Source: Promethearchaeota archaeon (GTDB taxonomy: Archaea; Asgardarchaeota; Lokiarchaeia; Sigyniarchaeales; SOKP01). From it: a DNA stretch of 64,000 bases. This document shows positions 641 through 12,289 of this stretch, in pieces. The stretch spans positions 1 to 64,000 of the forward strand of contig JAHPZJ010000015.1 in assembly GCA_019058245.1 (NCBI GenBank). Reading direction: 5' to 3'. The position numbers were made by a program, and so were the translations under genes. The notes beneath the pieces are model-generated. The model did not search any database. It had not been told where the DNA came from and was given only the letters and a program-made list of their open reading frames with translations. Every line of letters starts with the position of its first letter. Position 1 is the stretch's first letter.

Positions 641-2275
641 ATGCTTTCAGACGACTACTTATTTTCTGACATCGGAATTGATTCAATTGGATTTTACGCA
701 CCTAGGCATTTTGTAGCTTTAAAAGACCTTGCTTTGAAAAGAAGTGTAGATCCTGCAAAGTATTCTCAAGGACTTTTATCTAAAGAAATGCGAGTTGCTG
801 AAGTTGATGAAGATATTATTTCTTTAGGATTAAAGGCAGGATATAATGCACTATTAAGAGGGCGTATTTCACCTAAGAGTATAGATGCGTTATTTGTAGG
901 TACAGAAACAGAGGTATATGCAGCAAAATCAATTTCAAACATTTTTGCACAGATGTTAGAAATATCGCCAAATGCATTAACCCAAGATGTCTATAATGCA
1001 TGTGCTGGAGGAACTTTAGCAATTTTAAATGCTATTGCGATGATTGAAAAGGAAATCATTAATAAAGCTCTTGTTATAAGTGCAGATATTTCTTCTTATC
1101 ATTTAGGATCTCCTGGAGAGCCTACTCAGGGCTCAGGAGCAGTAGGAATTGTTATTTCAAAAGATCCCCGTGTGGCTACATTTTCTAAACGATTTGGAAA
1201 AGTATCTGGTAATGTTAACGATTTCTTTAGACCTCCAAATGACAAAAACGCAAGCGCATTTGGAAAATATTCTCAAAACACTTATATAGATTTTCAATTA
1301 AAAGCATATGATGATTTACTTAATAATGCGGGTGATTTTCATGCTGATTTTTATACATTTCATGCGCCCTATTCAAAATTACCGTTAAAAATAATGCAAC
1401 AAATCATTTTAAAACGATGGACAAAACACATAAGCGATTTACCTAAATTTGAAAAAGATAAAATAAAAATATCAATTCTCAAGAAACTTGATTCATTCTT
1501 ACATGATGTTACTGTATTACCAGAATATTTATATCTAAAATTGAATGAAAGAGGTTATTCTTCTTCAACACTAGAACAACTTTCAAGTTGGATAAATACC
1601 AATATTAAAGCAAGAGTTCTTCCCCAATTAAGAGTACCAATACATTTTGGTAATATGTATAATGCCAGTATCTGGGCACAAATCATTTTTCTTCTTGAGA
1701 ATTATGCTCGTGTGAGTGATACGTTATATTTTGGTTCTTATGGTTCAGGAGCGACCTGTATTTCTGGACTTTTAAAAGTTCAAGAGACATTTAATGAAAT
1801 AGTCCAGAAGGGACCTTTTATAAATGATTTTATCCATTTAAAGAGAAAGCAATCAGTATTAGAATATGAGCTAATAAAAAATGGCGATGTAAAACCTATC
1901 GTTTTATTAGGGCGTATTAGGGAGCATGAACAAAACGATGATAGAGGCTTTACACTCCATTTTTGCGATGAAGGTTGTATTATACCAAGCATAAAGGGAT
2001 TAGATCATTGTCCTAAAGGTCATACTGGATATCATGAAAGATTTTTCCCGCTTTTTGCGAAATTGACATCTGACCCTATTGCTCATAATAATATAACAGA
2101 TTTAAGGTATCTAAATAAAGGATTAGTAAGAGTAGCAAGCAATGTAAATAAGGGGAATTCTTTAGAATATGAAATTAGGAGAGTTGAATCGGAATATGAG
2201 GAAAATGTCAATGCAAGAGGTCTTTTAACTTGGACACCTTTCTATATTAATCTCCCAAATCATCACGTTTATTGA
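641..2275 (+). CDS. mvaS: Hydroxymethylglutaryl-CoA synthase with C-terminal DUF35-like (Zn-ribbon/OB) extension
   Basis: GIDSIGFYAP, VGTETE, catalytic NACAGG, GEPTQGSGA, FHAPY, FGNMYNAS and SYGSG motifs; extra ~120-aa C-terminus containing FCDEGC..HCPKGH. Confidence 0.9.
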   Translation: MLSDDYLFSDIGIDSIGFYAPRHFVALKDLALKRSVDPAKYSQGLLSKEMRVAEVDEDIISLGLKAGYNALLRGRISPKSIDALFVGTETEVYAAKSISNIFAQMLEISPNALTQDVYNACAGGTLAILNAIAMIEKEIINKALVISADISSYHLGSPGEPTQGSGAVGIVISKDPRVATFSKRFGKVSGNVNDFFRPPNDKNASAFGKYSQNTYIDFQLKAYDDLLNNAGDFHADFYTFHAPYSKLPLKIMQQIILKRWTKHISDLPKFEKDKIKISILKKLDSFLHDVTVLPEYLYLKLNERGYSSSTLEQLSSWINTNIKARVLPQLRVPIHFGNMYNASIWAQIIFLLENYARVSDTLYFGSYGSGATCISGLLKVQETFNEIVQKGPFINDFIHLKRKQSVLEYELIKNGDVKPIVLLGRIREHEQNDDRGFTLHFCDEGCIIPSIKGLDHCPKGHTGYHERFFPLFAKLTSDPIAHNNITDLRYLNKGLVRVASNVNKGNSLEYEIRRVESEYEENVNARGLLTWTPFYINLPNHHVY

Positions 2276-2457
2276 TTTTTTACTCTAAAAGTGGATTTTC
2301 ATTTAAAAACTTAAAATTCTCTTAGATATTATTTTATAAAAATCGCATATTAACTTCTATACTCAAAATAAATAGATACTAATAAAATAAAATAGGATGT
2401 AGATAAACTTTTTAATTTTTAGAAAAATGAATTAAATAATTCATACAATTATAAATC

Positions 2458-3669
2458 ATGATGGAGAAACCAATATCATATACTCTAAAGATCAAATTAA
2501 AAGAAGATTACAATGAAATTTTACAGTATTTGTTAGATAGAGATTATATTATACAAAATCTTCCTTCTGATTTATCTGCCAAGAAAAATCATGGTGAAAC
2601 CTATACTTTAGCATATCCAATTCAAGGTATATTAAAATATCATGGAATCGCAAATGAAGAACACCGAATTTCTTATTTTCCAAGTATTTCTTTAAATAAT
2701 GATTGTTCATATACAATTACATATTTAAAATTTGATAAAAATTTAAAAGAAGATCTAGCTTTTATAAATGGAAAACCAACTTTTGGGGAAGTTCTTGAAA
2801 GAATTAAATTCTCTTTAAATAAAATTCGTAGATATTCTAAAATAAAGACTAAAGCAATTCTAATATCTCGAAACTTTCTGAATACCAGTAAAGAAGGTCC
2901 AATGGGTAAAGGACTTGGAACTTCAGCTTCAGGTTCATCTGCTTTAGCTTTAGCAGCTATATCTATCTTATACAATAATGATCCCCTTTTTTTAGAAAAC
3001 AAACGATTATTAAGTATTTATTCTCGATATTTGTCAGGTTCTGGTTGTCGTAGTGCTTCGGGAGGATTTGCTTTATGGTTGAGTTATCCTGACATTAATT
3101 CACTCGATAGTTTCGCGATTAGATTAGATAGAAAAGAACATCGTGATTTTATTAAGAGTATTTCCCTTATTACGATCCCAATACCATCTGATTTAAGAAC
3201 TATTCAAGTTCATAAAATTGCACCAAAATCTCCTTTTTTTACAGCATGGTTAGAACAAAGAAAAAAATTAGTATTTGAATTTTTTGAAGCGCTAGATAAA
3301 CACGATTTAAATAGAATAGGAGAATTAGCAGAATATGATACTATGTGTTTACATTCAGTTACAATGACAGCACAAAATAAAGATAATATAATTGCTTGGG
3401 AGCCTGATACAGTAAAAATCATGCAGAAGATCCAAGAATTACGAATGAAGGATTCCTATAATGTGTATTATTCAATTGATACCGGTCCATCTTTAGTTTT
3501 ATTAACTCTAGAAAACGAAAAAAAAGAAATAATTAATGAATTAAAATCCTTTATTCCAAAATATGATTTCATTGAGGGAAAAATAGGAGGATCTCCTATG
3601 ATAGTTAGCCCAAATTCATTAGAAGCAAAAAAATTAAAATCAGATTTAGAAAAGTTTAATAGTTTTTAG
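2458..3669 (+). CDS. mvaD: GHMP-family mevalonate-phosphate decarboxylase, haloarchaeal phosphomevalonate decarboxylase-like
   Basis: AYPIQGILKYHG (PMD-type signature), GLGTSASG, SGSGCRS and SIDTGPS motifs; located in the MVA cluster. Confidence 0.8.
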   Translation: MMEKPISYTLKIKLKEDYNEILQYLLDRDYIIQNLPSDLSAKKNHGETYTLAYPIQGILKYHGIANEEHRISYFPSISLNNDCSYTITYLKFDKNLKEDLAFINGKPTFGEVLERIKFSLNKIRRYSKIKTKAILISRNFLNTSKEGPMGKGLGTSASGSSALALAAISILYNNDPLFLENKRLLSIYSRYLSGSGCRSASGGFALWLSYPDINSLDSFAIRLDRKEHRDFIKSISLITIPIPSDLRTIQVHKIAPKSPFFTAWLEQRKKLVFEFFEALDKHDLNRIGELAEYDTMCLHSVTMTAQNKDNIIAWEPDTVKIMQKIQELRMKDSYNVYYSIDTGPSLVLLTLENEKKEIINELKSFIPKYDFIEGKIGGSPMIVSPNSLEAKKLKSDLEKFNSF

Positions 3670-3685
3670 AAGAGTGGTTTAAATT

Positions 3686-4966
3686 ATGGAAGAATTCCGT
3701 TCAGATATTTCCGGTTTTTATAAATTATCATTTGAAGAACGTCAGCAAACTATCTCAAAAATTGTAAATCTAACTCACGATGAAATTAAGATTTTACAAA
3801 ATTTAGGATATTTTACGTCTAGTCAAATTACTAATTTCATTGAAAATGTTGTTGGGAGTTACCAATTACCATTTGGTTTAGCTTTCAACTTTAAAATCAA
3901 TAATAAAGATTATATTATACCCATGGTTATTGAAGAACCTTCAGTTGTAGCTGCTGCATCAAATGCAGCGAAATTCGCTAGAAAGCATGGAGGATTTCAA
4001 TCAGAAGAAGTGAAATCTGTAATGATTTCACAAATTCAAATAACTAATTTGCATGAAATTAATATCGCAAAAAAAGAAATTATTGATAATAAAGATCAAA
4101 TTTTACAAATTGCCAATGAACAGGATCCGTTTCTGAATGAATTAGGTGGTGGTGCAATTGACCTTGAAATTAGAGAATTGGATACTCGTAAGGGAAAAAT
4201 GTTGATTTTACATCTATTAGTTGATGTCTTGGATGCTATGGGTGCTAATGTTGTAAATACAATGGCTGAGGCGGTTACTCCCTTTATTGAAGAACTTACT
4301 AATGGAAAAATCTATCTTCGGATAGTATCAAACCTAGCTTCACACAGAATTGCAAAAAGTAAGGCTACTTTCGATCAAGATTTATTAGGTGGAGAAAAAG
4401 TTGTTGAAGGCATAATGAATGCATTTGAGTTTGCGGTAGCAGATCCTTTCAGGGCAACAACTCATAATAAAGGTATTATGAATGGAGTTATAGCATTAAC
4501 ATTAGCCACGGGAAATGATACACGTGCTATTGAAGCGGGAGCTCATGCTTATGCATCATTGAAGGGAAATTATTCACCATTAACTACCTTTGGAGTTGAT
4601 TCAGAAGGTAATTTAGTTGGGGAGATAGAAATTCCACTTGCTCTTGGTATTATTGGAGGGATGACTAAAATTCACCCTATGGCCCAGTTAGCTTTAAAAA
4701 TTTTAAATGTTAAAAGTGCTAATGAACTCTCTCAGGTTGGTGCGGCTCTTGGATTAGCCCAGAATGTTGCCGCATTAAGAGCTTTAGCGTCAGAAGGTAT
4801 CCAAGAAGGACATATGAAACTTCATGCTCGTAATATAGCAAAAGCAGCAGGTGCTTCTGATAAGTTGATTGAAGAAGTTGCAAAAAAGATGATAAAAGAT
4901 AAAAAAATTAGAATTGATTATGCAAAAGAAATTTTAAAAAAAATAAGCGACAATAAAAACCTTTAG
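3686..4966 (+). CDS. mvaA: HMG-CoA reductase, class II
   Basis: ENVVG, EEPSVVAA, DAMGAN, THNKGIMNG, GNDTRA and GHMKLH motifs. Confidence 0.95.
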   Translation: MEEFRSDISGFYKLSFEERQQTISKIVNLTHDEIKILQNLGYFTSSQITNFIENVVGSYQLPFGLAFNFKINNKDYIIPMVIEEPSVVAAASNAAKFARKHGGFQSEEVKSVMISQIQITNLHEINIAKKEIIDNKDQILQIANEQDPFLNELGGGAIDLEIRELDTRKGKMLILHLLVDVLDAMGANVVNTMAEAVTPFIEELTNGKIYLRIVSNLASHRIAKSKATFDQDLLGGEKVVEGIMNAFEFAVADPFRATTHNKGIMNGVIALTLATGNDTRAIEAGAHAYASLKGNYSPLTTFGVDSEGNLVGEIEIPLALGIIGGMTKIHPMAQLALKILNVKSANELSQVGAALGLAQNVAALRALASEGIQEGHMKLHARNIAKAAGASDKLIEEVAKKMIKDKKIRIDYAKEILKKISDNKNL

Positions 4967-5047
4967 TTTTATAATAAGTGGTTCTGTAACTCCTCTAAGA
5001 AAAACAACAATTGAAATTTATGTTATCAAGATAAAAATTAATAAGAG

Positions 5048-6358
5048 ATGAAAATTATGACATTTAGAGAATATATAAATCAGATTGAAAAGGAAGGAAA
5101 ACTCCGAAAGGTAGATATGGCAGTTTCTAAAAAATTAGAGATTTCTGGAATTTTGAAAGAAATTGAACCGACCCCAATATTATTTAATAATGTGAAAGAA
5201 TCAGATTTTCGAGTTGCTGGTAATGTCTTTTGTACAAAAGATGCAATTGCTACTTATTTTGGTATTAACCCTGCAGAAATTATACCGCTGCTTTCAAAAG
5301 CCATTAAAAATCATTCTGAACCAGAAGTAATTTCTAAGGCACCTTGTCAAGAGATTATCGAATCTAACATAGATTTAGATAAAATTCCTATATTATATCA
5401 TTGTGAAAGAGATGGAGGAAACTATATTAGTTCTGCGATAGTAGTCACAAGAGATCCAGACTATGGTCAAAATTTAGATTTTCACAGAGCAATGCAATTT
5501 TCAAAAAATAAATTCTCCGTTCGTGTAGTAAAGGGACGTCATTTTGATAAATTTTTAGAAAAAAATGGAGAATTAGACGTAGCTTTTTGTATAGGAAATA
5601 CGCCTAATATCTTAATCGCTGGAGCAACATCAGTAGAGATTGGTCTTAATGAATTACATATTGCCAATGCATTAGAACAAATTAAAGTAGTAAAAGCTAA
5701 TTCAGTCGATCTTTTAATACCTGCTGATGCAGAGTTTGTTCTAGAAGGGCGTATATATTTGGAGGATAAACATTCAGAGGGTCCTTTTGTTGATCTCACT
5801 GAAACATATGATACAATACGAGAAGAACCTATTTTTGAAGTAAAAAGAATTACTCATAGAAAGGATGCAATTTGGCAGGCGCTCCTCCCAGGTGCTCTTG
5901 AACATAAGATTTTGATGGGTATGCCTAGAGAACCTACTATTTTTAACAAAGTGAATGAACAGGGAGTTAAATGTTTGGATGTAAACATTAGTCCTGGTGG
6001 ATCTTCTTGGTTACATGCAATAGTACAAATTGATAAAAAATCAGAAGAAGATGGAAGAAAAGCAATAGAAGGAACCTTAGCTGGACATACAAGTTGTAAA
6101 CATGTTTTTATTGTAGATAAAGATATTAATATATATAATCCATTATCTGTTGAGTGGGCAATGGCAACTCGTTTTCAAGGAGATTCAAGAATGATTATTA
6201 AGGATAAGGAACCTGGGAGTAGTTTAGATCCTAGTGCTGAACCTGGAACAAAAATGACAACGAAAATTGGGTTTGATTTAACCAAACCACTTGTAGTCAA
6301 GGGAAAAAGTTTTGAAATTGCTGAATTTCCCAAAGTTGATATCAATAAATACTTTTAA
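5048..6358 (+). CDS. ubiD: UbiD-family decarboxylase, probable trans-anhydromevalonate phosphate decarboxylase (AMPD)
   Basis: DGGNYISS, AEFVLEG, EGPFVD, VEWAMATRFQ and SSLDPS motifs; adjacent to the AcnX subunit genes. Confidence 0.85.
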   Translation: MKIMTFREYINQIEKEGKLRKVDMAVSKKLEISGILKEIEPTPILFNNVKESDFRVAGNVFCTKDAIATYFGINPAEIIPLLSKAIKNHSEPEVISKAPCQEIIESNIDLDKIPILYHCERDGGNYISSAIVVTRDPDYGQNLDFHRAMQFSKNKFSVRVVKGRHFDKFLEKNGELDVAFCIGNTPNILIAGATSVEIGLNELHIANALEQIKVVKANSVDLLIPADAEFVLEGRIYLEDKHSEGPFVDLTETYDTIREEPIFEVKRITHRKDAIWQALLPGALEHKILMGMPREPTIFNKVNEQGVKCLDVNISPGGSSWLHAIVQIDKKSEEDGRKAIEGTLAGHTSCKHVFIVDKDINIYNPLSVEWAMATRFQGDSRMIIKDKEPGSSLDPSAEPGTKMTTKIGFDLTKPLVVKGKSFEIAEFPKVDINKYF

Positions 6359-6374
6359 GTGGAGGAAAGAAAAA

Positions 6375-7568
6375 ATGAAATTGACATTAGAAGAACAAGA
6401 TATGTTAGATGGTAAGTATGGAAATGCTACTCAGAAATCAGTGGAAATATTAATCACATTAGGAGATATATTTGATGCTGATGGTATGGTTGACGTGCAT
6501 GGAGTTCAAATAGCTGGAGTTTCATATGCTAATTTAGGAGAAGCTGGTTTGGAATTCTTAAGTGAAATGGCAGAGGATGGTAAAGTTAGAGTCTTAACAA
6601 CTTTGAATCCTGCAGGAATGGATCGAGAAAATTGGCAAGCTTTAGGGATTGATGAAGAATTTGCTAAAAATCAGAATCGAGCTATTGATGCCTTTGCAAA
6701 AATGGGTATAATTACTACTTGCTCTTGTACCCCTTATTTAATTGGGAATTCTCCACATTATGGGCAACATATTGCTTGGGCAGAAAGTAGTGCTGTTTGT
6801 TATGCTAATTCTGTTATTGGAGCTCGAACCAATCGTGAAGGAGGACCAAGTGCTTTAGCATCAGCTATTACTGGAAAAACACCAAAATATGGATATCACC
6901 TGGATGAGAATCGTCATGGGGAAGTTTTGGTAAAAGTAAATGCTGCAGTTAATGGTACAGATGAATTTGGAGTTTTGGGGAAAATAATTGGTGATAAATT
7001 GGTAGAATTAGGAAAGAAAATACCATATATTGAGGGTATACCTGAAGCAACAATTGAAGAACTCAAATCATTTTGTGCGTCTGTTGCAACATATGGCGGA
7101 ACAGCATTATTCCATATGGAGGGAATCACACCAGAATATAATAAATATCCTAAACCAGTTGATATTTCATTTGAAATTAGTCAAAGCGACCTTAATAAAA
7201 CTCGTTCTGAACTTATTGATGACGATCTTGAGATAGACTTTGTAAGTATAGGTTGCCCGCATGCTTCAATTTATGAGATTGAAAGAATTGCTAGTCTTTT
7301 AAAAGGAAAGAAAGTAAAGAAAGAATTTTGGATTACTACTGCCCGTCCCACAAAAAGAATCGCTGACGAAGCTGGATATTCAAAAATAATTGAGGAAGCA
7401 GGAGCGAAATTTGCAGCAGATACGTGTTGCGTCGTTGCTCCAATTAAGGGTCGTTTTAAAGGCATAATGGTAGACTCAGCGAAAGCATGTTATTATGGAC
7501 GCGCAAAAAATCAATTTAAAGTAAAAATTGGTCCAATTAAGGAATGTGTGGAGGAGGCTATAAAATGA
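6375..7568 (+). CDS. Aconitase X catalytic (large) subunit, probable phosphomevalonate dehydratase
   Basis: TCSCTPY, AWAESSA, NSVIGARTNREGGPSAL, IGCPHAS and DTCCVV motifs. Start moved to ATG 6375, which follows GGAGG. Confidence 0.88.
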   Translation: MKLTLEEQDMLDGKYGNATQKSVEILITLGDIFDADGMVDVHGVQIAGVSYANLGEAGLEFLSEMAEDGKVRVLTTLNPAGMDRENWQALGIDEEFAKNQNRAIDAFAKMGIITTCSCTPYLIGNSPHYGQHIAWAESSAVCYANSVIGARTNREGGPSALASAITGKTPKYGYHLDENRHGEVLVKVNAAVNGTDEFGVLGKIIGDKLVELGKKIPYIEGIPEATIEELKSFCASVATYGGTALFHMEGITPEYNKYPKPVDISFEISQSDLNKTRSELIDDDLEIDFVSIGCPHASIYEIERIASLLKGKKVKKEFWITTARPTKRIADEAGYSKIIEEAGAKFAADTCCVVAPIKGRFKGIMVDSAKACYYGRAKNQFKVKIGPIKECVEEAIK

Positions 7569-7957
7569 AGTTAGAAGGTAGAAAAATTTATAAAGGTACT
7601 GCTGAAGCAGAAGCCATAGTCACTAAAGATGGAATCTCTTTCTATGGTGGTGTTGATCCTGATACGGGAAAAGTAGTTGAAGTTGGACATGAACTTGAAG
7701 GTCAATCAATAGCAGGAAAAGTGTTTGTTTTTCCTACTGGCAAAGGATCAACAGTAGGATCATATACTATGTATAGGATGAAGAAGAATAATCTGGCTCC
7801 AGCAGCAATTGTTAATAAACAAATTGATACTATCATAGCCGTAGGTTGTATTATCAGCGAGATTCCTTGTGTGGATCAAATTAATACTAATGAAATAAAG
7901 ACTGGACAAAGACTTATTGTTAATGGTACAGAAGGAACAATAGAAATAATAGACTAG
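7565..7957 (+). CDS. Aconitase X swivel (small, DUF126) subunit, phosphomevalonate dehydratase
   Basis: ISFYGGVDPDTG and GKGSTVGSY motifs. ATG 7565 follows GGAGG and lies at the 3' end of the large-subunit gene. Confidence 0.88.
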   Translation: MKLEGRKIYKGTAEAEAIVTKDGISFYGGVDPDTGKVVEVGHELEGQSIAGKVFVFPTGKGSTVGSYTMYRMKKNNLAPAAIVNKQIDTIIAVGCIISEIPCVDQINTNEIKTGQRLIVNGTEGTIEIID

Positions 7958-8260
7958 TCTAATTTTGATATTAATGAAAGGTTCAGCAATAACTCATTCA
8001 AAGATAACGTTAATAAAATATTGGGGTCATTGGAATGAGGTATCCCCTGAACTAAATATACCTTTAAATGATAGTGTAAGTATAATGAAATATTGGTTTT
8101 CATAAAATTCTCAATTAAAATTCTATATTACAATTGAATTTTTTTTACTTCTTCTCCAACTTTTTAAATAAAGTAAAAAATTATCAAAATAAGTTATAGA
8201 ATAAGAAACTTAAAAAATTTGAATATTTACAAATTTTATTATATTACACGAGTATAATTG

Positions 8261-9236
8261 GTGAAAAATTTGGGTATTGGAAAAGGATACGGAAAGACCA
8301 TACTTTTTGGCGAAATTTAATTCTTAATTAAAGATTAAACGCAATCATTTTGTAGTTTATGGTCTTCCTGCAATAGCATCAGCATTAGGATCTTTTACGA
8401 CTGCGGAAGTTAACATAGTTGAGGGTAATGATTGGGATGTTAATGATAAAAGATTAGCAACACCCAGTTATAAAAAACAAAAATACAATGAGGCAATGGA
8501 ATCAATTAAAAATGTTATTAACTTTTTAAAAATTGATACAGACAAGCAAAAACTTGAGATAACGTTTGCAGGTGATTTAATTGCCGCTAGTGGTGTGGGT
8601 GCTTCAGCAGCTCAATGTACATCACTTTCTCGTGCATTAAATGATACATTTAATCTTAATTTAAATGATGAGAGAATTAATGAAGCTGCTTATGAAGGAG
8701 AGAAAGCTTATCATGGTACACCCTCAGGAATTGACAATACAGCTTCAACTTATGGGGGATTAATTTGGTTTGTTAAAAACCTATCTGGCGGTAAAAATAC
8801 TATGGAACTATTGCAATCACCAAAGAAGATGCCTTTAGTAATTTTAAACACAGGAATAACAGCGTCAACAACAGAAGTTGTAGCTGATGTTAGACGATTA
8901 AAAGAGGAATCTCCAGAAAAATTTGAAAAGATTTTCAACCAATATGAAAATTTAATAATAGAGGCAAAAAAAGCTTTACTTGAGGGAAATATAGTCAAGA
9001 CGGGTGAATTAATGAATCAAAATCATAAATTATTACAAGATATATCAGTTTCTGGAGAAATTAACGAAAAATTAGTCAAAATTGCCCTTCAAAATGGTGC
9101 CATAGGTGCTAAAATGACTGGAACGGGAAGAGGAGGATTAGTAATTGCTTTGGCTGAAACTAATAAAATACAAGATAAAATTGCCAAGGCTGCTGAAAAA
9201 GAAGGATATGATGCCTGGAAAACCATGATAGGATGA
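8261..9236 (+). CDS. mvk: Mevalonate kinase, split gene: join(8261..8314,8346..9236), 314 aa if spliced
   Basis: GTG 8261 gives MKNLGIGKGYGKTILFGE. From 8346, HFVVYGLPAIASALG... is in frame with the 8496 ORF (SGVGASAA, HGTPSGIDN, GAKMTGTGRGG). The ORF track shows only the 3' 246 aa. Confidence 0.9.
8315..8345 (+). other. Putative 31-nt bulge-helix-bulge-type intron in the mvk mRNA
   Basis: ATTTAATTCTTAATTAAAGATTAAACGCAAT interrupts GE|H. Central helix GGCG 8309-12/CGCA 8340-43; 3-nt bulges AA^A and AT^C; internal hairpin TTTAAT/ATTAAA; exon-exon stem AAGACCATA/TATGGTCTT. Confidence 0.75.
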
Positions 9237-9249
9237 GTGCGAGGAAAAA

Positions 9250-11142
9250 TTGAAAAACAACAATGAAATAATTCTGCTTAAATTAGGTGGAAGTTTATTA
9301 ACTGACAAGAATAGACCATTTTCCCTAAGGGAAGAAATTTTAGAAAAATGTGTTAATCAAATAATAGATAGTAAAAAATCAATTATATTAATTCACGGTG
9401 GTGGTTCATTTGGTCATCCTCTTGCTAAAAAATATAAAATATCTCAAGGTTTGAATAATTCTATTGAAGATCAAATCATAGGACTTTCAAAGACGCATGA
9501 TGCTATGAATCAATTGAATTCTATTATCATAAAAAAATTTCTTGAAAAAGAATGTCCCGCAATTTCAATTCAACCTTCAAGTATTTTTATACAAGATTTT
9601 AATGAAATTAGTATTAAATCAATAGAACCTATTGAAAAATTACTTGATCTTGGAGTAATACCAGTCCTTTATGGAGATATTCTTCTCAGTAAAGATTACT
9701 CTTTTTCAATTCTATCTGGAGATTACATTATTTTAAAATTATGCGAGAATATTAAAAATTTTAAGATCTCAAAAGTAATATTTGCAATTGAAGAAGATGG
9801 TATCTTTATTGATGAGAATAGTAATAAAAAATTAGCTTCGAAATTAACACTTAACGATTTATCTACGATAAAATTAGCGAAATTAGATCAAAAAATAGAT
9901 GTTACTGGAGGAATAAAAGGAAAATTAAAAGAAATTGAAAAAATCTTAAAATTAAATATACCTGTTCAAATTATTAACGGTATTAAAAATAAAAATATAT
10001 TCAAAGCTTTAACGAACCAATATATAGAATGTACTAATATTGAAATACCATTAAATAAATCAGATGAAAGTCAAATATACAATAGAAAAATTGAACATAT
10101 TAAGATACCTTTAGAACACAACGTTCAACACACAATTAACTATTTTGATGATATTACGCTGATTCATCATCCACTTCCAGAAATAGAATTAGAGGAAACT
10201 AATATTTCTGTTGAATTCTTTAAAAAACATATATCTGCTCCAATTTGTATTTCAGCAATCACAGGGGGTCACCAAGTATCTAAAGCTATCAATAATATTT
10301 TAGCAAATGCTGCAAAATCGGAAAACATCATACTAGGGATTGGGAGTCAGAGAATAGGTTTAGAAGATCCCTCTACAATTGAATCTTTCAGTATAGTTCG
10401 AGATGTAGCACCAAAAATTCCTATCATAGGGAATTTAGGTATTGGACAGGTATGTGATCCCAATTTTGATATTGATAATTTCAAAAAATGCATTGATATG
10501 ATTAAAGCAGATGTTATGGCTATACACTTTAATGCTTTACATGAACTTGTTCAAAAAGAGGGTAGCATTTCCTATAATAACTTTGAAGAAAGATTTAAAG
10601 AAATAAGAAAAAAACTGAATATACCAATTATTGCTAAAGAAGTTGGGTCAGGATTTAATAAAGAATTAGCTTTAAAGCTTGATTTATTAGGTTTTGATGG
10701 GTTTGATGTTGGTGGAGCAGGTGGTACTAGTTTTGCCGCAATTGAGTCATTACGTGATGACTATAGTAATGAAGTATATACGCGAAAAATTGCGGATACA
10801 TTCAGGGAATGGGGAATCCCAACACCAATTGCAATAATCTATGTAAGACAAGCTACCGAAAAACCCATAATAGCTACAGGGGGATTGCGGTCTGGAGTTG
10901 ATATTGCCAAATCTATCGTTTTAGGGGCGGATATTGGAGGTTTTGCGTTCAAATTCTTAAAATCGGCTTGGCAGGATTATAAAAGTAATTCCATGAATAA
11001 CACGATCAAGGAAATTAAAACTCTAAAGCATGAATTAAGATCTTCGATGTGGTTGATGAATATAGAAAATATTAACAAGCTTAAATGTAATAGTGAGAAA
11101 AGAATCTTAGTTGGGAAATTATATCAATGGCTAAATCAATAA
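9250..11142 (+). CDS. fni: Fusion of isopentenyl phosphate kinase and type 2 isopentenyl-diphosphate isomerase
   Basis: N-half: KLGGSLLTDK, HGGGSFGH, SGD, DVTGGI (IPK). C-half: RKIEHI, AITGG, GSQR, KEVG, GAGGT, ATGGLRSG (IDI-2). Confidence 0.92.
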   Translation: MKNNNEIILLKLGGSLLTDKNRPFSLREEILEKCVNQIIDSKKSIILIHGGGSFGHPLAKKYKISQGLNNSIEDQIIGLSKTHDAMNQLNSIIIKKFLEKECPAISIQPSSIFIQDFNEISIKSIEPIEKLLDLGVIPVLYGDILLSKDYSFSILSGDYIILKLCENIKNFKISKVIFAIEEDGIFIDENSNKKLASKLTLNDLSTIKLAKLDQKIDVTGGIKGKLKEIEKILKLNIPVQIINGIKNKNIFKALTNQYIECTNIEIPLNKSDESQIYNRKIEHIKIPLEHNVQHTINYFDDITLIHHPLPEIELEETNISVEFFKKHISAPICISAITGGHQVSKAINNILANAAKSENIILGIGSQRIGLEDPSTIESFSIVRDVAPKIPIIGNLGIGQVCDPNFDIDNFKKCIDMIKADVMAIHFNALHELVQKEGSISYNNFEERFKEIRKKLNIPIIAKEVGSGFNKELALKLDLLGFDGFDVGGAGGTSFAAIESLRDDYSNEVYTRKIADTFREWGIPTPIAIIYVRQATEKPIIATGGLRSGVDIAKSIVLGADIGGFAFKFLKSAWQDYKSNSMNNTIKEIKTLKHELRSSMWLMNIENINKLKCNSEKRILVGKLYQWLNQ

Positions 11143-11175
11143 ATCTTAAATGTTAAATTTCTACTATGAATAATA

Positions 11176-11571
11176 TTACTTAGAATCTGATGGTTTTTCT
11201 TCTAAAAAATCTTCAATCTCATTTATGAAATCAGAAAAACTACCAATTTTCCTTGTAATGTTTTTTAGTTTTTCACCATAAAGTTTAATGAATTTATCAG
11301 AGAGTTTTTTTAATTCTTTATTTACTTTTTTCTGTTTGAATTTTTTAGAAGAATTTGCTATAAATATCAACTCGTATTGCTTTATAATGGTGAATCTAGA
11401 ATTTTCTAATTCGAAATTTGACATACCGCCTTCAGCTAATTGTTCAGAAAACATGTTTAAAGCGCTCATCATTGCTCCAAAAAGTTGAGGAGATACCGCC
11501 TTATCAAATTCTCTATGAAAAATTGCAATTCCTGATTGCTCAAGAATCCAAATATCCTGAAATATTTTCAT
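11176..11571 (-). CDS. Stand-alone longin-like domain protein
   Basis: IWILEQSGIAIFHREF...LFGAMMSAL...LIFIANS...LSDKFIKLYG pattern typical of Asgard longin/roadblock-like proteins. Start likely ATG 11571. Confidence 0.65.
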   Translation of the reverse strand: MKIFQDIWILEQSGIAIFHREFDKAVSPQLFGAMMSALNMFSEQLAEGGMSNFELENSRFTIIKQYELIFIANSSKKFKQKKVNKELKKLSDKFIKLYGEKLKNITRKIGSFSDFINEIEDFLEEKPSDSK

Positions 11572-11740
11572 TTGAATTCCTCTTTCTCTCACTTTTATGC
11601 AAATTTTTCTAAATTTTAATAAACCGCTTCTATAAAAAATTATAGATCTTTTTATTTATTTTATGAAATAAATTTATTCTTTTTTAGATTTATAGTTTTT
11701 AATTCGTTATTTTTTGTTCTAATAATTTAATTAAAAGAGA

Positions 11741-12289
11741 TCATGAATTGCCCCATCTTTTAATATTGCTCTCAATACCTATCTGATCCAAAATTCTCCC
11801 TATTGTAAACTCAGTAAGTTCTTCTAAATTTTTAGGTTTAATATAATAAGAAGGAATAGGTGGAAAAATTATAACACCCAGTTTTGCTAATTTGAGCATA
11901 TTTTCCAAATGAATTACGCTAAAAGGAGTTTCACGTACTATAAGTATAAGTTTTCTCTGCTCTTTTATCATTACATCAGCAGCTCTTGTAATGAGATTAT
12001 TTGCATAACCATTTGCGATAGCAGAAAGAGTTTTCATTGAACAGGGAATTATTATCATGGAATCAAGTTTATAGGATCCACTCGCGGGAGGTGCTAATAG
12101 ATCATGTACTTCATAATTTTTATCAGCCAGTTTACGTACTTCTGATATATTATGATTAGTCTCAATTGAAACAATCTTTTCAGCATTTTTTGAAATAATT
12201 AATTCCGTTTTAATACCTTTCTTTTTAAGTATTTCAAGAAACCTAATTGCTAAATGAATTCCAGAGGTGCCAGTAACTGCAACTAACAT
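11741..12289 (-). CDS. ubiX: Flavin prenyltransferase UbiX
   Basis: VAVTGTSG, ASGS, PCSMKTL, NLITRAADV and RETP motifs; would supply prFMN to the UbiD enzyme. Confidence 0.93.
   Translation of the reverse strand: MLVAVTGTSGIHLAIRFLEILKKKGIKTELIISKNAEKIVSIETNHNISEVRKLADKNYEVHDLLAPPASGSYKLDSMIIIPCSMKTLSAIANGYANNLITRAADVMIKEQRKLILIVRETPFSVIHLENMLKLAKLGVIIFPPIPSYYIKPKNLEELTEFTIGRILDQIGIESNIKRWGNS

What the first reader, a model, noticed from the sequence alone, without database searches (positions are those of the whole stretch)
2458..12289. Two alternative mevalonate-5-phosphate to isopentenyl phosphate routes in one cluster
Seen in the sequence: a GHMP decarboxylase with the PIQGxxKYHG signature sits beside UbiD, both AcnX subunits and UbiX, with IPK present and no phosphomevalonate kinase in the window. 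Established knowledge: the haloarchaeal route uses an ATP-dependent phosphomevalonate decarboxylase, while the archaeal route uses an Fe-S dehydratase plus prFMN-dependent AMPD and saves one ATP. The two routes are normally treated as alternatives. Inference: a dual pathway (ATP-sparing but O2-sensitive versus ATP-costly but O2-tolerant), or an evolutionary transition state relevant to the origin of the eukaryotic MVA pathway.
Basis: partly seen in the sequence, partly recalled or inferred. Interest (0 to 1): 0.75.

Follow-up and report, generated by a model that had tools for sequence, protein, structure and literature searches.

The report
Lokiarchaeal mevalonate cluster with two routes
One gene cluster of a Lokiarchaeal (Promethearchaeia) genome carries both known ways of turning mevalonate 5-phosphate into isopentenyl phosphate; this is real and inherited, but the same co-occurrence is already listed in published gene tables.

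Summary
Observation confirmed. Window 641-12289 holds HMGS, a 403-aa GHMP decarboxylase, class II HMGR, UbiD, AcnX large and small subunits, MVK, an IPK-IDI2 fusion and UbiX. No phosphomevalonate kinase was found in this genome (76% complete) or in five roughly 100% complete relatives.

The decarboxylase belongs to a Lokiarchaeal clade that also contains the Thermoplasma bisphosphomevalonate decarboxylases. It keeps the archaeal PMD motifs (IQGxLKYHG, KGLGTSAS, DTGPS) that those enzymes have lost. It is under purifying selection (dN/dS 0.16-0.25). Its tree matches the HMGS tree.

Among 154 genomes of the order, 25 of 135 in the own family carry it, and 23 of those also have AcnX, mostly in the same cluster. 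The sister family has only the decarboxylase. The dual state is therefore old and stable, not peculiar to this genome.

A decayed remnant of a second, DMD-like decarboxylase lies at 7975-8106.

Novelty is limited. Zhu et al. 2024 (PMC11052028, Table S3) already tabulate PMD+AcnX+AMPD genomes, one of them Lokiarchaeal. The oxygen rationale has no support, because these organisms are anaerobes. No enzyme of this clade has been assayed.

In passing: MVK is split by a conserved 31-nt intron-like insert with a bulge-helix-bulge fold. The scan had already noted it.

The parts
641..2275 (+). HMG-CoA synthase, 544 aa, long form
   Evidence: PF01154 and PF08540 match. The best NCBIfam model is TIGR01835 at 221 bits, below its cut-off. 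The gene is syntenic in all relatives.
2458..3669 (+). Lokiarchaeal-type GHMP decarboxylase, putative ATP-dependent phosphomevalonate decarboxylase (403 aa)
   Evidence: PF22700 and PF18376 match. NF040847 scores 169, NF040704 152 and TIGR01240 119.5 bits, all below their cut-offs. Best PDB matches are 6n0x (1.6e-28) and 7t71 (2e-27). Clade and motifs. dN/dS is 0.16-0.25.
3686..4966 (+). class II HMG-CoA reductase
   Evidence: PF00368 scores 352 bits and TIGR00532 scores 483 bits. It starts 16 nt after the decarboxylase.
5048..6358 (+). UbiD-family decarboxylase, putative anhydromevalonate phosphate decarboxylase (AMPD)
   Evidence: All three UbiD domains are present; TIGR00148 scores 372 bits. 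It is the only UbiD in the assembly. It is always next to AcnX in relatives. The EGPFxD motif is invariant.
6375..7568 (+). AcnX large subunit, putative phosphomevalonate dehydratase (the ORF can be read from TTG 6312)
   Evidence: PF04412 scores 498 bits. 7cnr_A (T. kodakarensis) matches at 1.7e-103, against 1.6e-59 for hydroxyproline dehydratase. The three cluster-binding cysteines are aligned and conserved.
7544..7957 (+). AcnX small (swivel) subunit
   Evidence: PF01989 scores 122 bits, NF003046 scores 179 bits (above cut-off), and 7cnr_B TK1248 matches at 2.9e-40.
7975..8106 (+). remnant (44 codons) of a DMD-like GHMP decarboxylase gene
   Evidence: PF22700 scores 22.5 bits. It is 69% identical to the start of the intact 339-aa gene that occupies this slot in G012. 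About 850 nt are deleted. G087 shares the same deletion junction and has an added stop; the G024 copy is further decayed.
8261..8314 (+). mevalonate kinase, first coding piece (GTG start to ...GKTILFGE)
   Evidence: Read from the sequence. It is 83-94% identical in relatives.
8315..8345 (+). 31-nt intervening sequence in MVK, candidate bulge-helix-bulge intron
   Evidence: The insert is present at the same site in 55 of 154 genomes of the order. A precise intronless junction is found in 30.
8346..9236 (+). mevalonate kinase, second coding piece (HFVVYGLPAIA...)
   Evidence: TIGR00549 scores 187 bits over profile positions 68-276 for the ORF 8496-9236. The frame is open from 8346.
9250..11142 (+). 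isopentenyl phosphate kinase fused to type 2 IPP isomerase (630 aa)
   Evidence: NF040647 scores 218 bits over residues 8-264 and TIGR02151 scores 348 bits over residues 278-613, in one ORF.
11176..11592 (-). longin-domain protein, syntenic passenger of the cluster
   Evidence: PF19036 scores 26.8 bits. It is conserved at this place across the genus.
11741..12289 (-). UbiX flavin prenyltransferase (makes the prFMN cofactor for UbiD)
   Evidence: TIGR00421 scores 250 bits and PF02441 scores 152 bits.

Best explanation
The cluster encodes a complete mevalonate pathway with two parallel branches from mevalonate 5-phosphate to isopentenyl phosphate.

- Branch 1 is the archaeal one. The two-subunit Fe-S dehydratase AcnX makes trans-anhydromevalonate 5-phosphate. 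The UbiD enzyme, loaded with prFMN from UbiX, decarboxylates it.
- Branch 2 is a single ATP-dependent GHMP phosphomevalonate decarboxylase of a Lokiarchaeal clade.

MVK feeds both branches and the IPK-IDI2 fusion finishes both.

The double state is inherited from the common ancestor of the two main families of the order. It has been kept in about one fifth of the species of this family. The sister family lost branch 1 and most species of this family lost branch 2.

Shown here: gene content, intactness, conservation, selection and phylogeny.

Inferred: the substrates of the decarboxylase and of UbiD, and that both branches carry flux.
For: Gene identities.

AcnX. It is closest to the T. kodakarensis enzyme, which was solved with MVA5P. 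The three cysteines that hold the [4Fe-4S] cluster in A. pernix PMDh are aligned and conserved.

UbiD. It is the only family member in the assembly. It is always adjacent to AcnX, and UbiX lies in the cluster. An 82%-identical orthologue (YT1_053) comes from a genome in which PMC11052028 counts one AMPD.

Decarboxylase.
- The catalytic Asp (D341, in SIDTGPS) aligns with the catalytic aspartates of AthPMD and PtoMBD.
- In a 124-sequence tree it lies in a 30-member clade (SH-aLRT 100) that also holds the MBD lineage. That lineage sits on a long stem of 0.75, and archaeal PMDs are the next group out.
- At the motifs where MBD departs (KFLGYY, GLgES) it keeps the PMD states KYHG and GLGTSAS.
- It is the only MVD-like gene in the genome, and no PMK was found.
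- In the sister family the cluster reads HMGS-PMD-HMGR-MVK-IPK-IDI2 with no AcnX. There this enzyme is the only candidate for the step. PMC11052028 says the same for MK-D1.

Selection. dN/dS is 0.16-0.25, against 0.05-0.15 for the neighbouring genes.

Inheritance. The PMD tree is congruent with the HMGS tree over 11 genomes.

Recurrence. 25 of 135 genomes of the family carry the decarboxylase. 23 of them also have AcnX, and in 19 both lie on one contig.
Against: - No member of the Lokiarchaeal clade has been assayed.
- The protein scores below the cut-offs of all NCBIfam equivalogs. In this protein the MBD model scores slightly above the PMD model (169 against 152 bits).
- Its dN/dS is about twice that of its neighbours.
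- It has been lost in about four fifths of the family's genomes, so it is dispensable when AcnX and UbiD are present.
- The AMPD assignment of UbiD rests on context. No AMPD structure is in the PDB, and the best hit there is HmfF.
- The own genome is only 76% complete.
- Nothing shows that both branches are expressed.
Confidence: 0.65

Rival explanations
1. The decarboxylase is a redundant leftover on its way to loss. Flux runs through AcnX/UbiD and the gene is kept only weakly.
For: The distribution is patchy: about 80% of the family's genomes lack it. dN/dS is twice that of the neighbours. Fragments of such genes occur in G065, G100 and G101. A second decarboxylase has already decayed in this very cluster.
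Against: dN/dS of 0.16-0.25 is still clear purifying selection. The frame is intact in 25 species of nine genera. The tree is congruent with HMGS back to the split of two families, which is a long time for a useless gene to survive.
Confidence: 0.15
2. The protein is an ATP-independent decarboxylase like the Thermoplasma bisphosphomevalonate decarboxylase, or acts on some other phosphorylated substrate, so it is not a second route from MVA5P by itself.
For: The MBD model is its best NCBIfam match (169 bits). It shares the clade, the N-terminal extension and the W-SYP-I insert with MBD.
Against: No mevalonate 3-kinase or second MVD-like gene is in the genome. The phosphate-loop and KYHG motifs are of the PMD type, not the MBD type. 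MBD sits on a long derived branch. In the sister family no other enzyme could supply a 3,5-bisphosphate.
Confidence: 0.1
3. The protein is a diphosphomevalonate decarboxylase of a eukaryote-type route whose phosphomevalonate kinase is unrecognised or unassembled.
For: The genome is 76% complete. TIGR01240 gives 119.5 bits.
Against: No PMK of either type was found in the own genome or in five about 100% complete relatives. The protein lies outside the DMD clade. IPK is present and fused to IDI2.
Confidence: 0.04
4. The juxtaposition is a chimeric contig of a metagenome bin.
For: The genome is a draft of 31 contigs.
Against: The same gene order occurs on contigs of independent genomes, for example G024, G087, G005, G048 and G135. 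G+C content is uniform.
Confidence: 0.01

Closest known systems
Archaeal (modified) mevalonate pathway: PMDh (AcnX type IIb) plus AMPD (UbiD) plus IPK, as in Aeropyrum pernix and Methanosarcina mazei
   Same: Two-subunit AcnX with the three cluster cysteines, a UbiD next to it, UbiX, MVK and IPK. No PMK.
   Different: Here a GHMP decarboxylase sits in the same cluster. IPK is fused to IDI2. MVK is interrupted by a 31-nt insert.
Haloarchaea-type pathway: PMD (MvaD) plus IPK. The Lokiarchaeal 'PMD' of Zhu et al. 2024 (PMC11052028), sole route in Prometheoarchaeum MK-D1
   Same: The 403-aa protein is an orthologue (42-48% identity) of the decarboxylase in the sister-family cluster HMGS-PMD-HMGR-MVK-IPK-IDI2, and it occupies the same slot between HMGS and HMGR.
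   Different: It scores far below the MvaD equivalog cut-off (152 against 475 bits). It has a roughly 50-aa N-terminal extension and an insert that it shares with MBD. Here it coexists with AcnX/UbiD.
[quoted passage not shown]
   Same: Same clade (SH-aLRT 100), shared extension and W-SYP-I insert, and the catalytic Asp.
   Different: MBD has lost the PMD-type KYHG and GLG(T/S)S motifs, needs M3K and M3PK, and uses no ATP. Those partner genes were not found here.
Published mixed gene sets: Hodarchaeales with PMK+DMD+AcnX+AMPD on one contig; Bathyarchaeia, Thermoplasmata and Lokiarchaeal MAG GCA_019058515 with PMD+AcnX+AMPD (PMC11052028, Table S3)
   Same: Co-occurrence of a GHMP decarboxylase with the AcnX/AMPD pair in one genome.
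   Different: For Lokiarchaeia the paper tabulates the co-occurrence but does not discuss it. This report adds the shared cluster, its vertical inheritance, the selection figures and the decayed second decarboxylase.

Membership tests
Phosphomevalonate dehydratase (AcnX type IIb) | Separate large and small subunits encoded side by side | tested here: met
   6375-7568 and 7544-7957 are adjacent. PF04412 scores 498 bits and PF01989 scores 122 bits.
Phosphomevalonate dehydratase (AcnX type IIb) | Three cysteines that bind the Fe-S cluster (A. pernix C122, C297, C356; sites A, 1 and B) | tested here: met
   In the alignment to 7cnr_A the cysteines in sCTPY, IGCPHAS and DtCcVV pair with those of the T. 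kodakarensis enzyme. Their role is taken from PMC10040528.
Phosphomevalonate dehydratase (AcnX type IIb) | [quoted passage not shown] | tested here: met
   1.7e-103 against 1.6e-59. The NF051439 model scores 295 bits against a cut-off of 700.
Anhydromevalonate phosphate decarboxylase (UbiD family) | UbiD fold with the catalytic E...R...E/D motif (EGPFxD) | tested here: met
   All three UbiD domains are present. E244-G-P-F-x-D249 is invariant in four orthologues down to 43% identity. The mapping to the Fdc1/UbiD motif is from memory.
Anhydromevalonate phosphate decarboxylase (UbiD family) | Falls in the clade of characterised AMPDs | tested here: inconclusive
   No AMPD is in the PDB; the best hit is HmfF. 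Two large searches returned only Asgard relatives. The support is indirect: fixed adjacency to AcnX, the only UbiD in the genome, and one AMPD counted in the genome (YT1_053) of an 82%-identical orthologue in PMC11052028 Table S3.
Anhydromevalonate phosphate decarboxylase (UbiD family) | Activity on trans-anhydromevalonate 5-phosphate with prFMN | not testable with these tools
   Needs an enzyme assay.
Phosphomevalonate decarboxylase (GHMP, MvaD-type) | Reaches the curated score of the equivalog model NF040704 | tested here: not met
   152 bits against a cut-off of 475. Orthologues score 137-203 bits.
Phosphomevalonate decarboxylase (GHMP, MvaD-type) | Catalytic Asp and the Arg of the SGSxxRS motif | tested here: met
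   D341 in SIDTGPS and R in SGSGCRS align with AthPMD and PtoMBD. The role of the Asp is taken from PMC9254496.
Phosphomevalonate decarboxylase (GHMP, MvaD-type) | PMD-type N-terminal and phosphate-loop motifs (IQGLxKYHG; KGLGxSxS) as opposed to the MBD or DMD states | tested here: met
   Group consensus comparison.
Phosphomevalonate decarboxylase (GHMP, MvaD-type) | ATP-dependent conversion of MVA5P to IP | not testable with these tools
   No member of the Lokiarchaeal clade has been assayed, as far as the papers searched show.
Mevalonate 3,5-bisphosphate decarboxylase | Partner kinases M3K and M3PK in the genome; equivalog score | tested here: not met
   Only one MVD-like gene is in the genome. 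NF040848 scores 26.7 bits on the same protein. NF040847 scores 169 against a cut-off of 560. M3PK was not searched for.
Diphosphomevalonate decarboxylase (eukaryote-type route) | PMK present; protein in the DMD clade | tested here: not met
   No PMK was found. TIGR01240 scores 119.5 against a cut-off of 171. The protein lies outside the 76-member DMD clade.

The most novel reading that the evidence does not exclude
Selection keeps both branches as a two-mode lower mevalonate pathway that predates the split of the two Lokiarchaeal families.

The Fe-S/prFMN branch saves one ATP and would carry routine flux. The GHMP decarboxylase would be a cofactor-independent bypass that can restart the pathway. 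The reason is that AMPD depends on prFMN, whose prenyl group comes from a product of this same pathway.

The lineage of this genome carried a DMD-like decarboxylase, now a decayed remnant, while it keeps the Lokiarchaeal one. This would mean that one such bypass is wanted, whichever gene supplies it.
Probability: 0.3. Interest if true: 0.6.

Novelty: new member of a known kind. Interest (0 to 1): 0.4.

Why it matters
The two routes differ by one ATP per isoprene unit and in their need for an Fe-S cluster and prFMN. An organism that keeps both in one operon-like cluster is a natural test case for when each route pays off. It is also a source of matched enzyme sets for pathway engineering.

For evolution, the result shows that the Lokiarchaeal ancestor probably had both routes and that lineages sorted them out by loss. 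That weakens step-by-step replacement schemes for the mevalonate pathway variants.

It also places the uncharacterised Lokiarchaeal decarboxylase clade as the nearest ATP-type relative of the Thermoplasma MBD. That makes it the right enzyme to assay in order to date the loss of kinase activity.

Tried and rejected
1. A third, unknown route in congeners. Several genomes of the genus showed neither AcnX nor a decarboxylase (G006, G011, G017, G018, G020). G018, G011 and G020 lack HMGR too. In G006 a 100-N gap follows HMGR, and in G017 HMGR sits at a contig end. These are assembly breaks, not biology.

2. Placing UbiD among named AMPDs. The protein search and the genome-contig scan returned only Asgard relatives, so the clade test stayed open.

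3. An outer exon-exon helix for the MVK insert (window 8291-8302 with 8358-8368). It is 97% paired but shows no covariation, and one pair breaks at a wobble base. It may be a by-product of the coding sequence.

4. ARAGORN found no tRNA in the window. It therefore gave no check of the splicing motif on tRNA introns here.

5. Horizontal origin of the decarboxylase. Its dS against G024 (0.146) is well below that of the flanking genes (0.5-0.75). This points to recent recombination among close species. The family-wide tree, however, is congruent with HMGS, so import from outside the family was rejected.

6. No structure prediction or complex prediction was run. Neither would separate PMD from MBD activity.
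Full report
**What is there.**
The window is contig C15 of a 3.09-Mb draft genome (31 contigs, 76% complete, about 29% G+C). Its closest database relatives are labelled Promethearchaeota/Promethearchaeia, that is Lokiarchaeia.

On the plus strand lie, in order:
- HMG-CoA synthase (641-2275);
- a 403-aa GHMP decarboxylase (2458-3669);
- class II HMG-CoA reductase (3686-4966);
- UbiD (5048-6358);
- AcnX large subunit (6375-7568) and small subunit (7544-7957);
- mevalonate kinase (8261-9236, interrupted);
- one 630-aa ORF that joins isopentenyl phosphate kinase to type 2 IPP isomerase (9250-11142).

On the minus strand follow a longin-domain gene and UbiX. The decarboxylase carries PIQGILKYHG at residues 54-63.

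**No phosphomevalonate kinase.**
The archaeal and the Gram-positive PMK models hit only the MVK gene, and the animal-type model hits nothing. Because the genome is incomplete, I repeated the search in five relatives of about 100% completeness that carry the same cluster. The result was the same. The cluster's decarboxylase is the only MVD-like gene in the genome, apart from a short remnant and a weak GHMP cross-hit on the MVK gene.

**The archaeal branch.**
The AcnX large subunit matches the T. kodakarensis enzyme (7cnr_A) at 1.7e-103, against 1.6e-59 for the bacterial hydroxyproline dehydratases. The small subunit matches TK1248. The three cysteines shown by mutagenesis to hold the [4Fe-4S] cluster of A. 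pernix PMDh (PMC10040528) are aligned and conserved.

UbiD has all three domains, an invariant EGPFxD motif, and is the only UbiD-family gene in the assembly. In every relative examined it lies directly upstream of AcnX. I could not place it beside characterised AMPDs. None is in the PDB, and two large searches returned only Asgard sequences. Its assignment therefore rests on context. It also rests on Table S3 of PMC11052028, which counts one AMPD in the genome (YT1_053) whose orthologue here is 82% identical.

**The decarboxylase.**
It scores below the curated cut-offs of all four equivalog models: MBD 169/560, PMD 152/475, DMD 119.5/171 and M3K 26.7/440. Its best solved relatives are the Anaerolinea PMD (6n0x) and the Picrophilus MBD (7t71). 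Its Asp341 aligns with their catalytic aspartates.

I ran an exhaustive search of 1.84 billion representatives and built a tree of 124 full-length hits. That tree places the protein in a 30-member clade (SH-aLRT 100). The clade holds 16 Lokiarchaeal-type sequences, a few intermediates, and an 8-member group on a long stem (0.75) that scores 395-439 bits on the MBD model. Outside this clade come archaeal PMD-type sequences and then a 76-member DMD clade. This reproduces the published sister relation of Lokiarchaeal 'PMD' and Thermoplasma MBD (PMC11052028).

Motif by motif, the Lokiarchaeal group keeps the archaeal PMD states (IQGxLKYHG, KGLGTSAS, TExAH..SPxF, DTGPS). The MBD group has changed them (KFLGYY, GLgES). 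There is no PMK, no M3K and an IPK. In the sister family this enzyme is the only candidate for the step. ATP-dependent PMD activity is therefore the most economical reading, but no enzyme of the clade has been assayed.

**Is it a live gene?**
Against three congeners its dN/dS is 0.16-0.25, compared with 0.05-0.15 for HMGS, HMGR, UbiD, AcnX and MVK. Selection is purifying but about twice as relaxed. Its dS against G024 (0.146) is well below that of the flanking genes (0.5-0.75), which suggests recent recombination among close species.

**How common is the double state?**
I surveyed 154 genomes of the order.
- Full-length orthologues occur in 13 of 14 genomes of the sister family (42-48% identity).
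- They occur in 25 of 135 genomes of the own family (49-94% identity), spread over nine genera.
- AcnX is found in 111 of 135 genomes of the own family but in only 1 of 14 of the sister family.
- Of the 25 own-family carriers, 23 also have AcnX, and in 19 it lies on the same contig within a few kilobases.

Gene maps show three cluster types:
- most of the own family: HMGS-HMGR-UbiD-AcnX-MVK-IPK-IDI2;
- the sister family: HMGS-PMD-HMGR-MVK-IPK-IDI2;
- this window: the exact union of the two.

The decarboxylase tree over 11 genomes is congruent with the HMGS tree: the families are separated and the genera are recovered. The simplest history is an ancestor with both branches followed by losses. 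This is long-lived redundancy, not a brief transition.

**A second decarboxylase that decayed.**
In at least 12 species of the genus a 339-343-aa decarboxylase lies between the AcnX small subunit and MVK. It passes the DMD model (233 bits against a cut-off of 171). These are the 'CR-4 DMD homologues without PMK' of PMC11052028.

The window keeps only its first 44 codons (7975-8106). About 850 nt are deleted. G087 shares the same deletion junction and has an extra stop codon, and G024 has a more decayed trace. This lineage thus once carried the DMD-like gene and lost it, while the Lokiarchaeal gene remains. In G069 the Lokiarchaeal gene itself sits in that slot, flanked by a duplicated end of the AcnX small-subunit gene. 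The modules have moved within the cluster.

**Comparison with what is known.**
PMC11052028 (2024) describes the Lokiarchaeal PMD and the CR-4 DMD homologues. It also describes Hodarchaeales contigs with PMK, DMD, AcnX and AMPD together. Its Table S3 lists PMD+AcnX+AMPD in five Bathyarchaeia, several Thermoplasmata and one Lokiarchaeal MAG that has DMD as well. The co-occurrence is therefore on record, although the text does not discuss it for Lokiarchaeia.

The paper notes that the decarboxylase route is the only one in strict anaerobes such as MK-D1. The window's protein is not on the line to eukaryotic DMD.

**Seen in passing: the MVK gene.**
The conserved kinase motif GKTILFGE|HFVVYG is split by 31 nt (8315-8345) that carry a stop codon and shift the frame.

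- The same insert, of 28-31 nt, is at the same site in 55 of 154 genomes (five genera). 30 genomes have the uninterrupted junction, and none has both.
- The boundaries fit a bulge-helix-bulge motif: bulge AA|A, a central helix GGCG/CGCA, bulge AU|C, and an inner hairpin.
- Across 48 distinct 31-nt alleles the three inner central pairs are always formed. There are four C-G to U-A double changes and five G-U variants. The flanking U-A pair is invariant. The fourth pair forms in 19 alleles.
- Intron-bearing genes use only GGC or GGT for the glycine codon and only TTT for the phenylalanine codon. Intronless genes use GGA 13, GGT 8, GGG 6, GGC 3 and TTC 20, TTT 10 (read).
- The genome has two EndA paralogues.

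In the papers searched here, introns in archaeal protein-coding genes are documented for cbf5 (PMC2738675). The scan had already noted this insert on this window. I had reached it independently, and I add the comparative evidence.

**Verdict.**
The finding is real and carefully observed. The gene-level claim of two routes in one cluster holds. The mechanism is probable but untested. The phenomenon is a further, well-documented case of something already visible in published tables.

Noticed in passing
window 8261-9236 (insert 8315-8345): The mevalonate kinase gene is split by a 31-nt insert at GKTILFGE|HFVVYG. The insert is conserved at the same site in 55 of 154 genomes of the order and precisely absent in 30. 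Its boundaries fit a bulge-helix-bulge motif with compensatory changes in the central helix. Codon choice in the flanking exon is constrained only in the intron-bearing alleles. Two EndA paralogues are present in the genome (C28:126271-126495, C20:60077-60325).
   Followed up: yes
window 7975-8106: A 44-codon remnant of a DMD-like GHMP decarboxylase gene. The gene is intact at this slot in at least 12 congeners. G087 shares the same deletion junction, and the G024 copy is further decayed.
   Followed up: yes
window 9250-11142: Isopentenyl phosphate kinase and type 2 IPP isomerase are one 630-aa ORF. In the congener checked (G024) the two halves are in one frame; in the sister-family genome G038 they are in different frames. 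A quick literature search found only engineered fusions of this kind.
   Followed up: partly
window 11176-11592 (-): A small longin-domain protein (Fuz/MON1-type, 26.8 bits) is conserved between IDI2 and UbiX across the genus, inside a metabolic cluster.
   Followed up: no
window 641-2275: HMG-CoA synthase is 544 aa and scores below the cut-offs of all HMGS equivalog models. The C-terminal roughly 150 residues have no Pfam match at E<0.001.
   Followed up: no
L042 (G069:C9) 8053-9343: In G069 the Lokiarchaeal decarboxylase sits between the AcnX small-subunit gene and MVK. It is flanked by a duplicated 3' fragment of the AcnX small-subunit gene, a sign of insertion by recombination.
   Followed up: partly
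window 2458-3669 versus L018 (G024): Synonymous divergence of the decarboxylase gene between G000 and G024 (dS 0.146) is three to five times lower than that of the flanking genes (0.5-0.75). This suggests recent allele exchange among close species.
   Followed up: partly
G030:C13:13840-14247: One sister-family genome has an AcnX-like fragment (39.9 bits) with five in-frame stops. It may be a trace of the lost archaeal branch. My tblastn with the window's AcnX did not recover it.
   Followed up: partly
L049 (G006:C1) 1149-1248; L050 (G017:C9) start: In two congeners the assembly breaks directly after HMGR, where UbiD-AcnX should follow: an N-gap in G006 and a contig end in G017. This stretch seems hard to assemble or bin.
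   Followed up: partly
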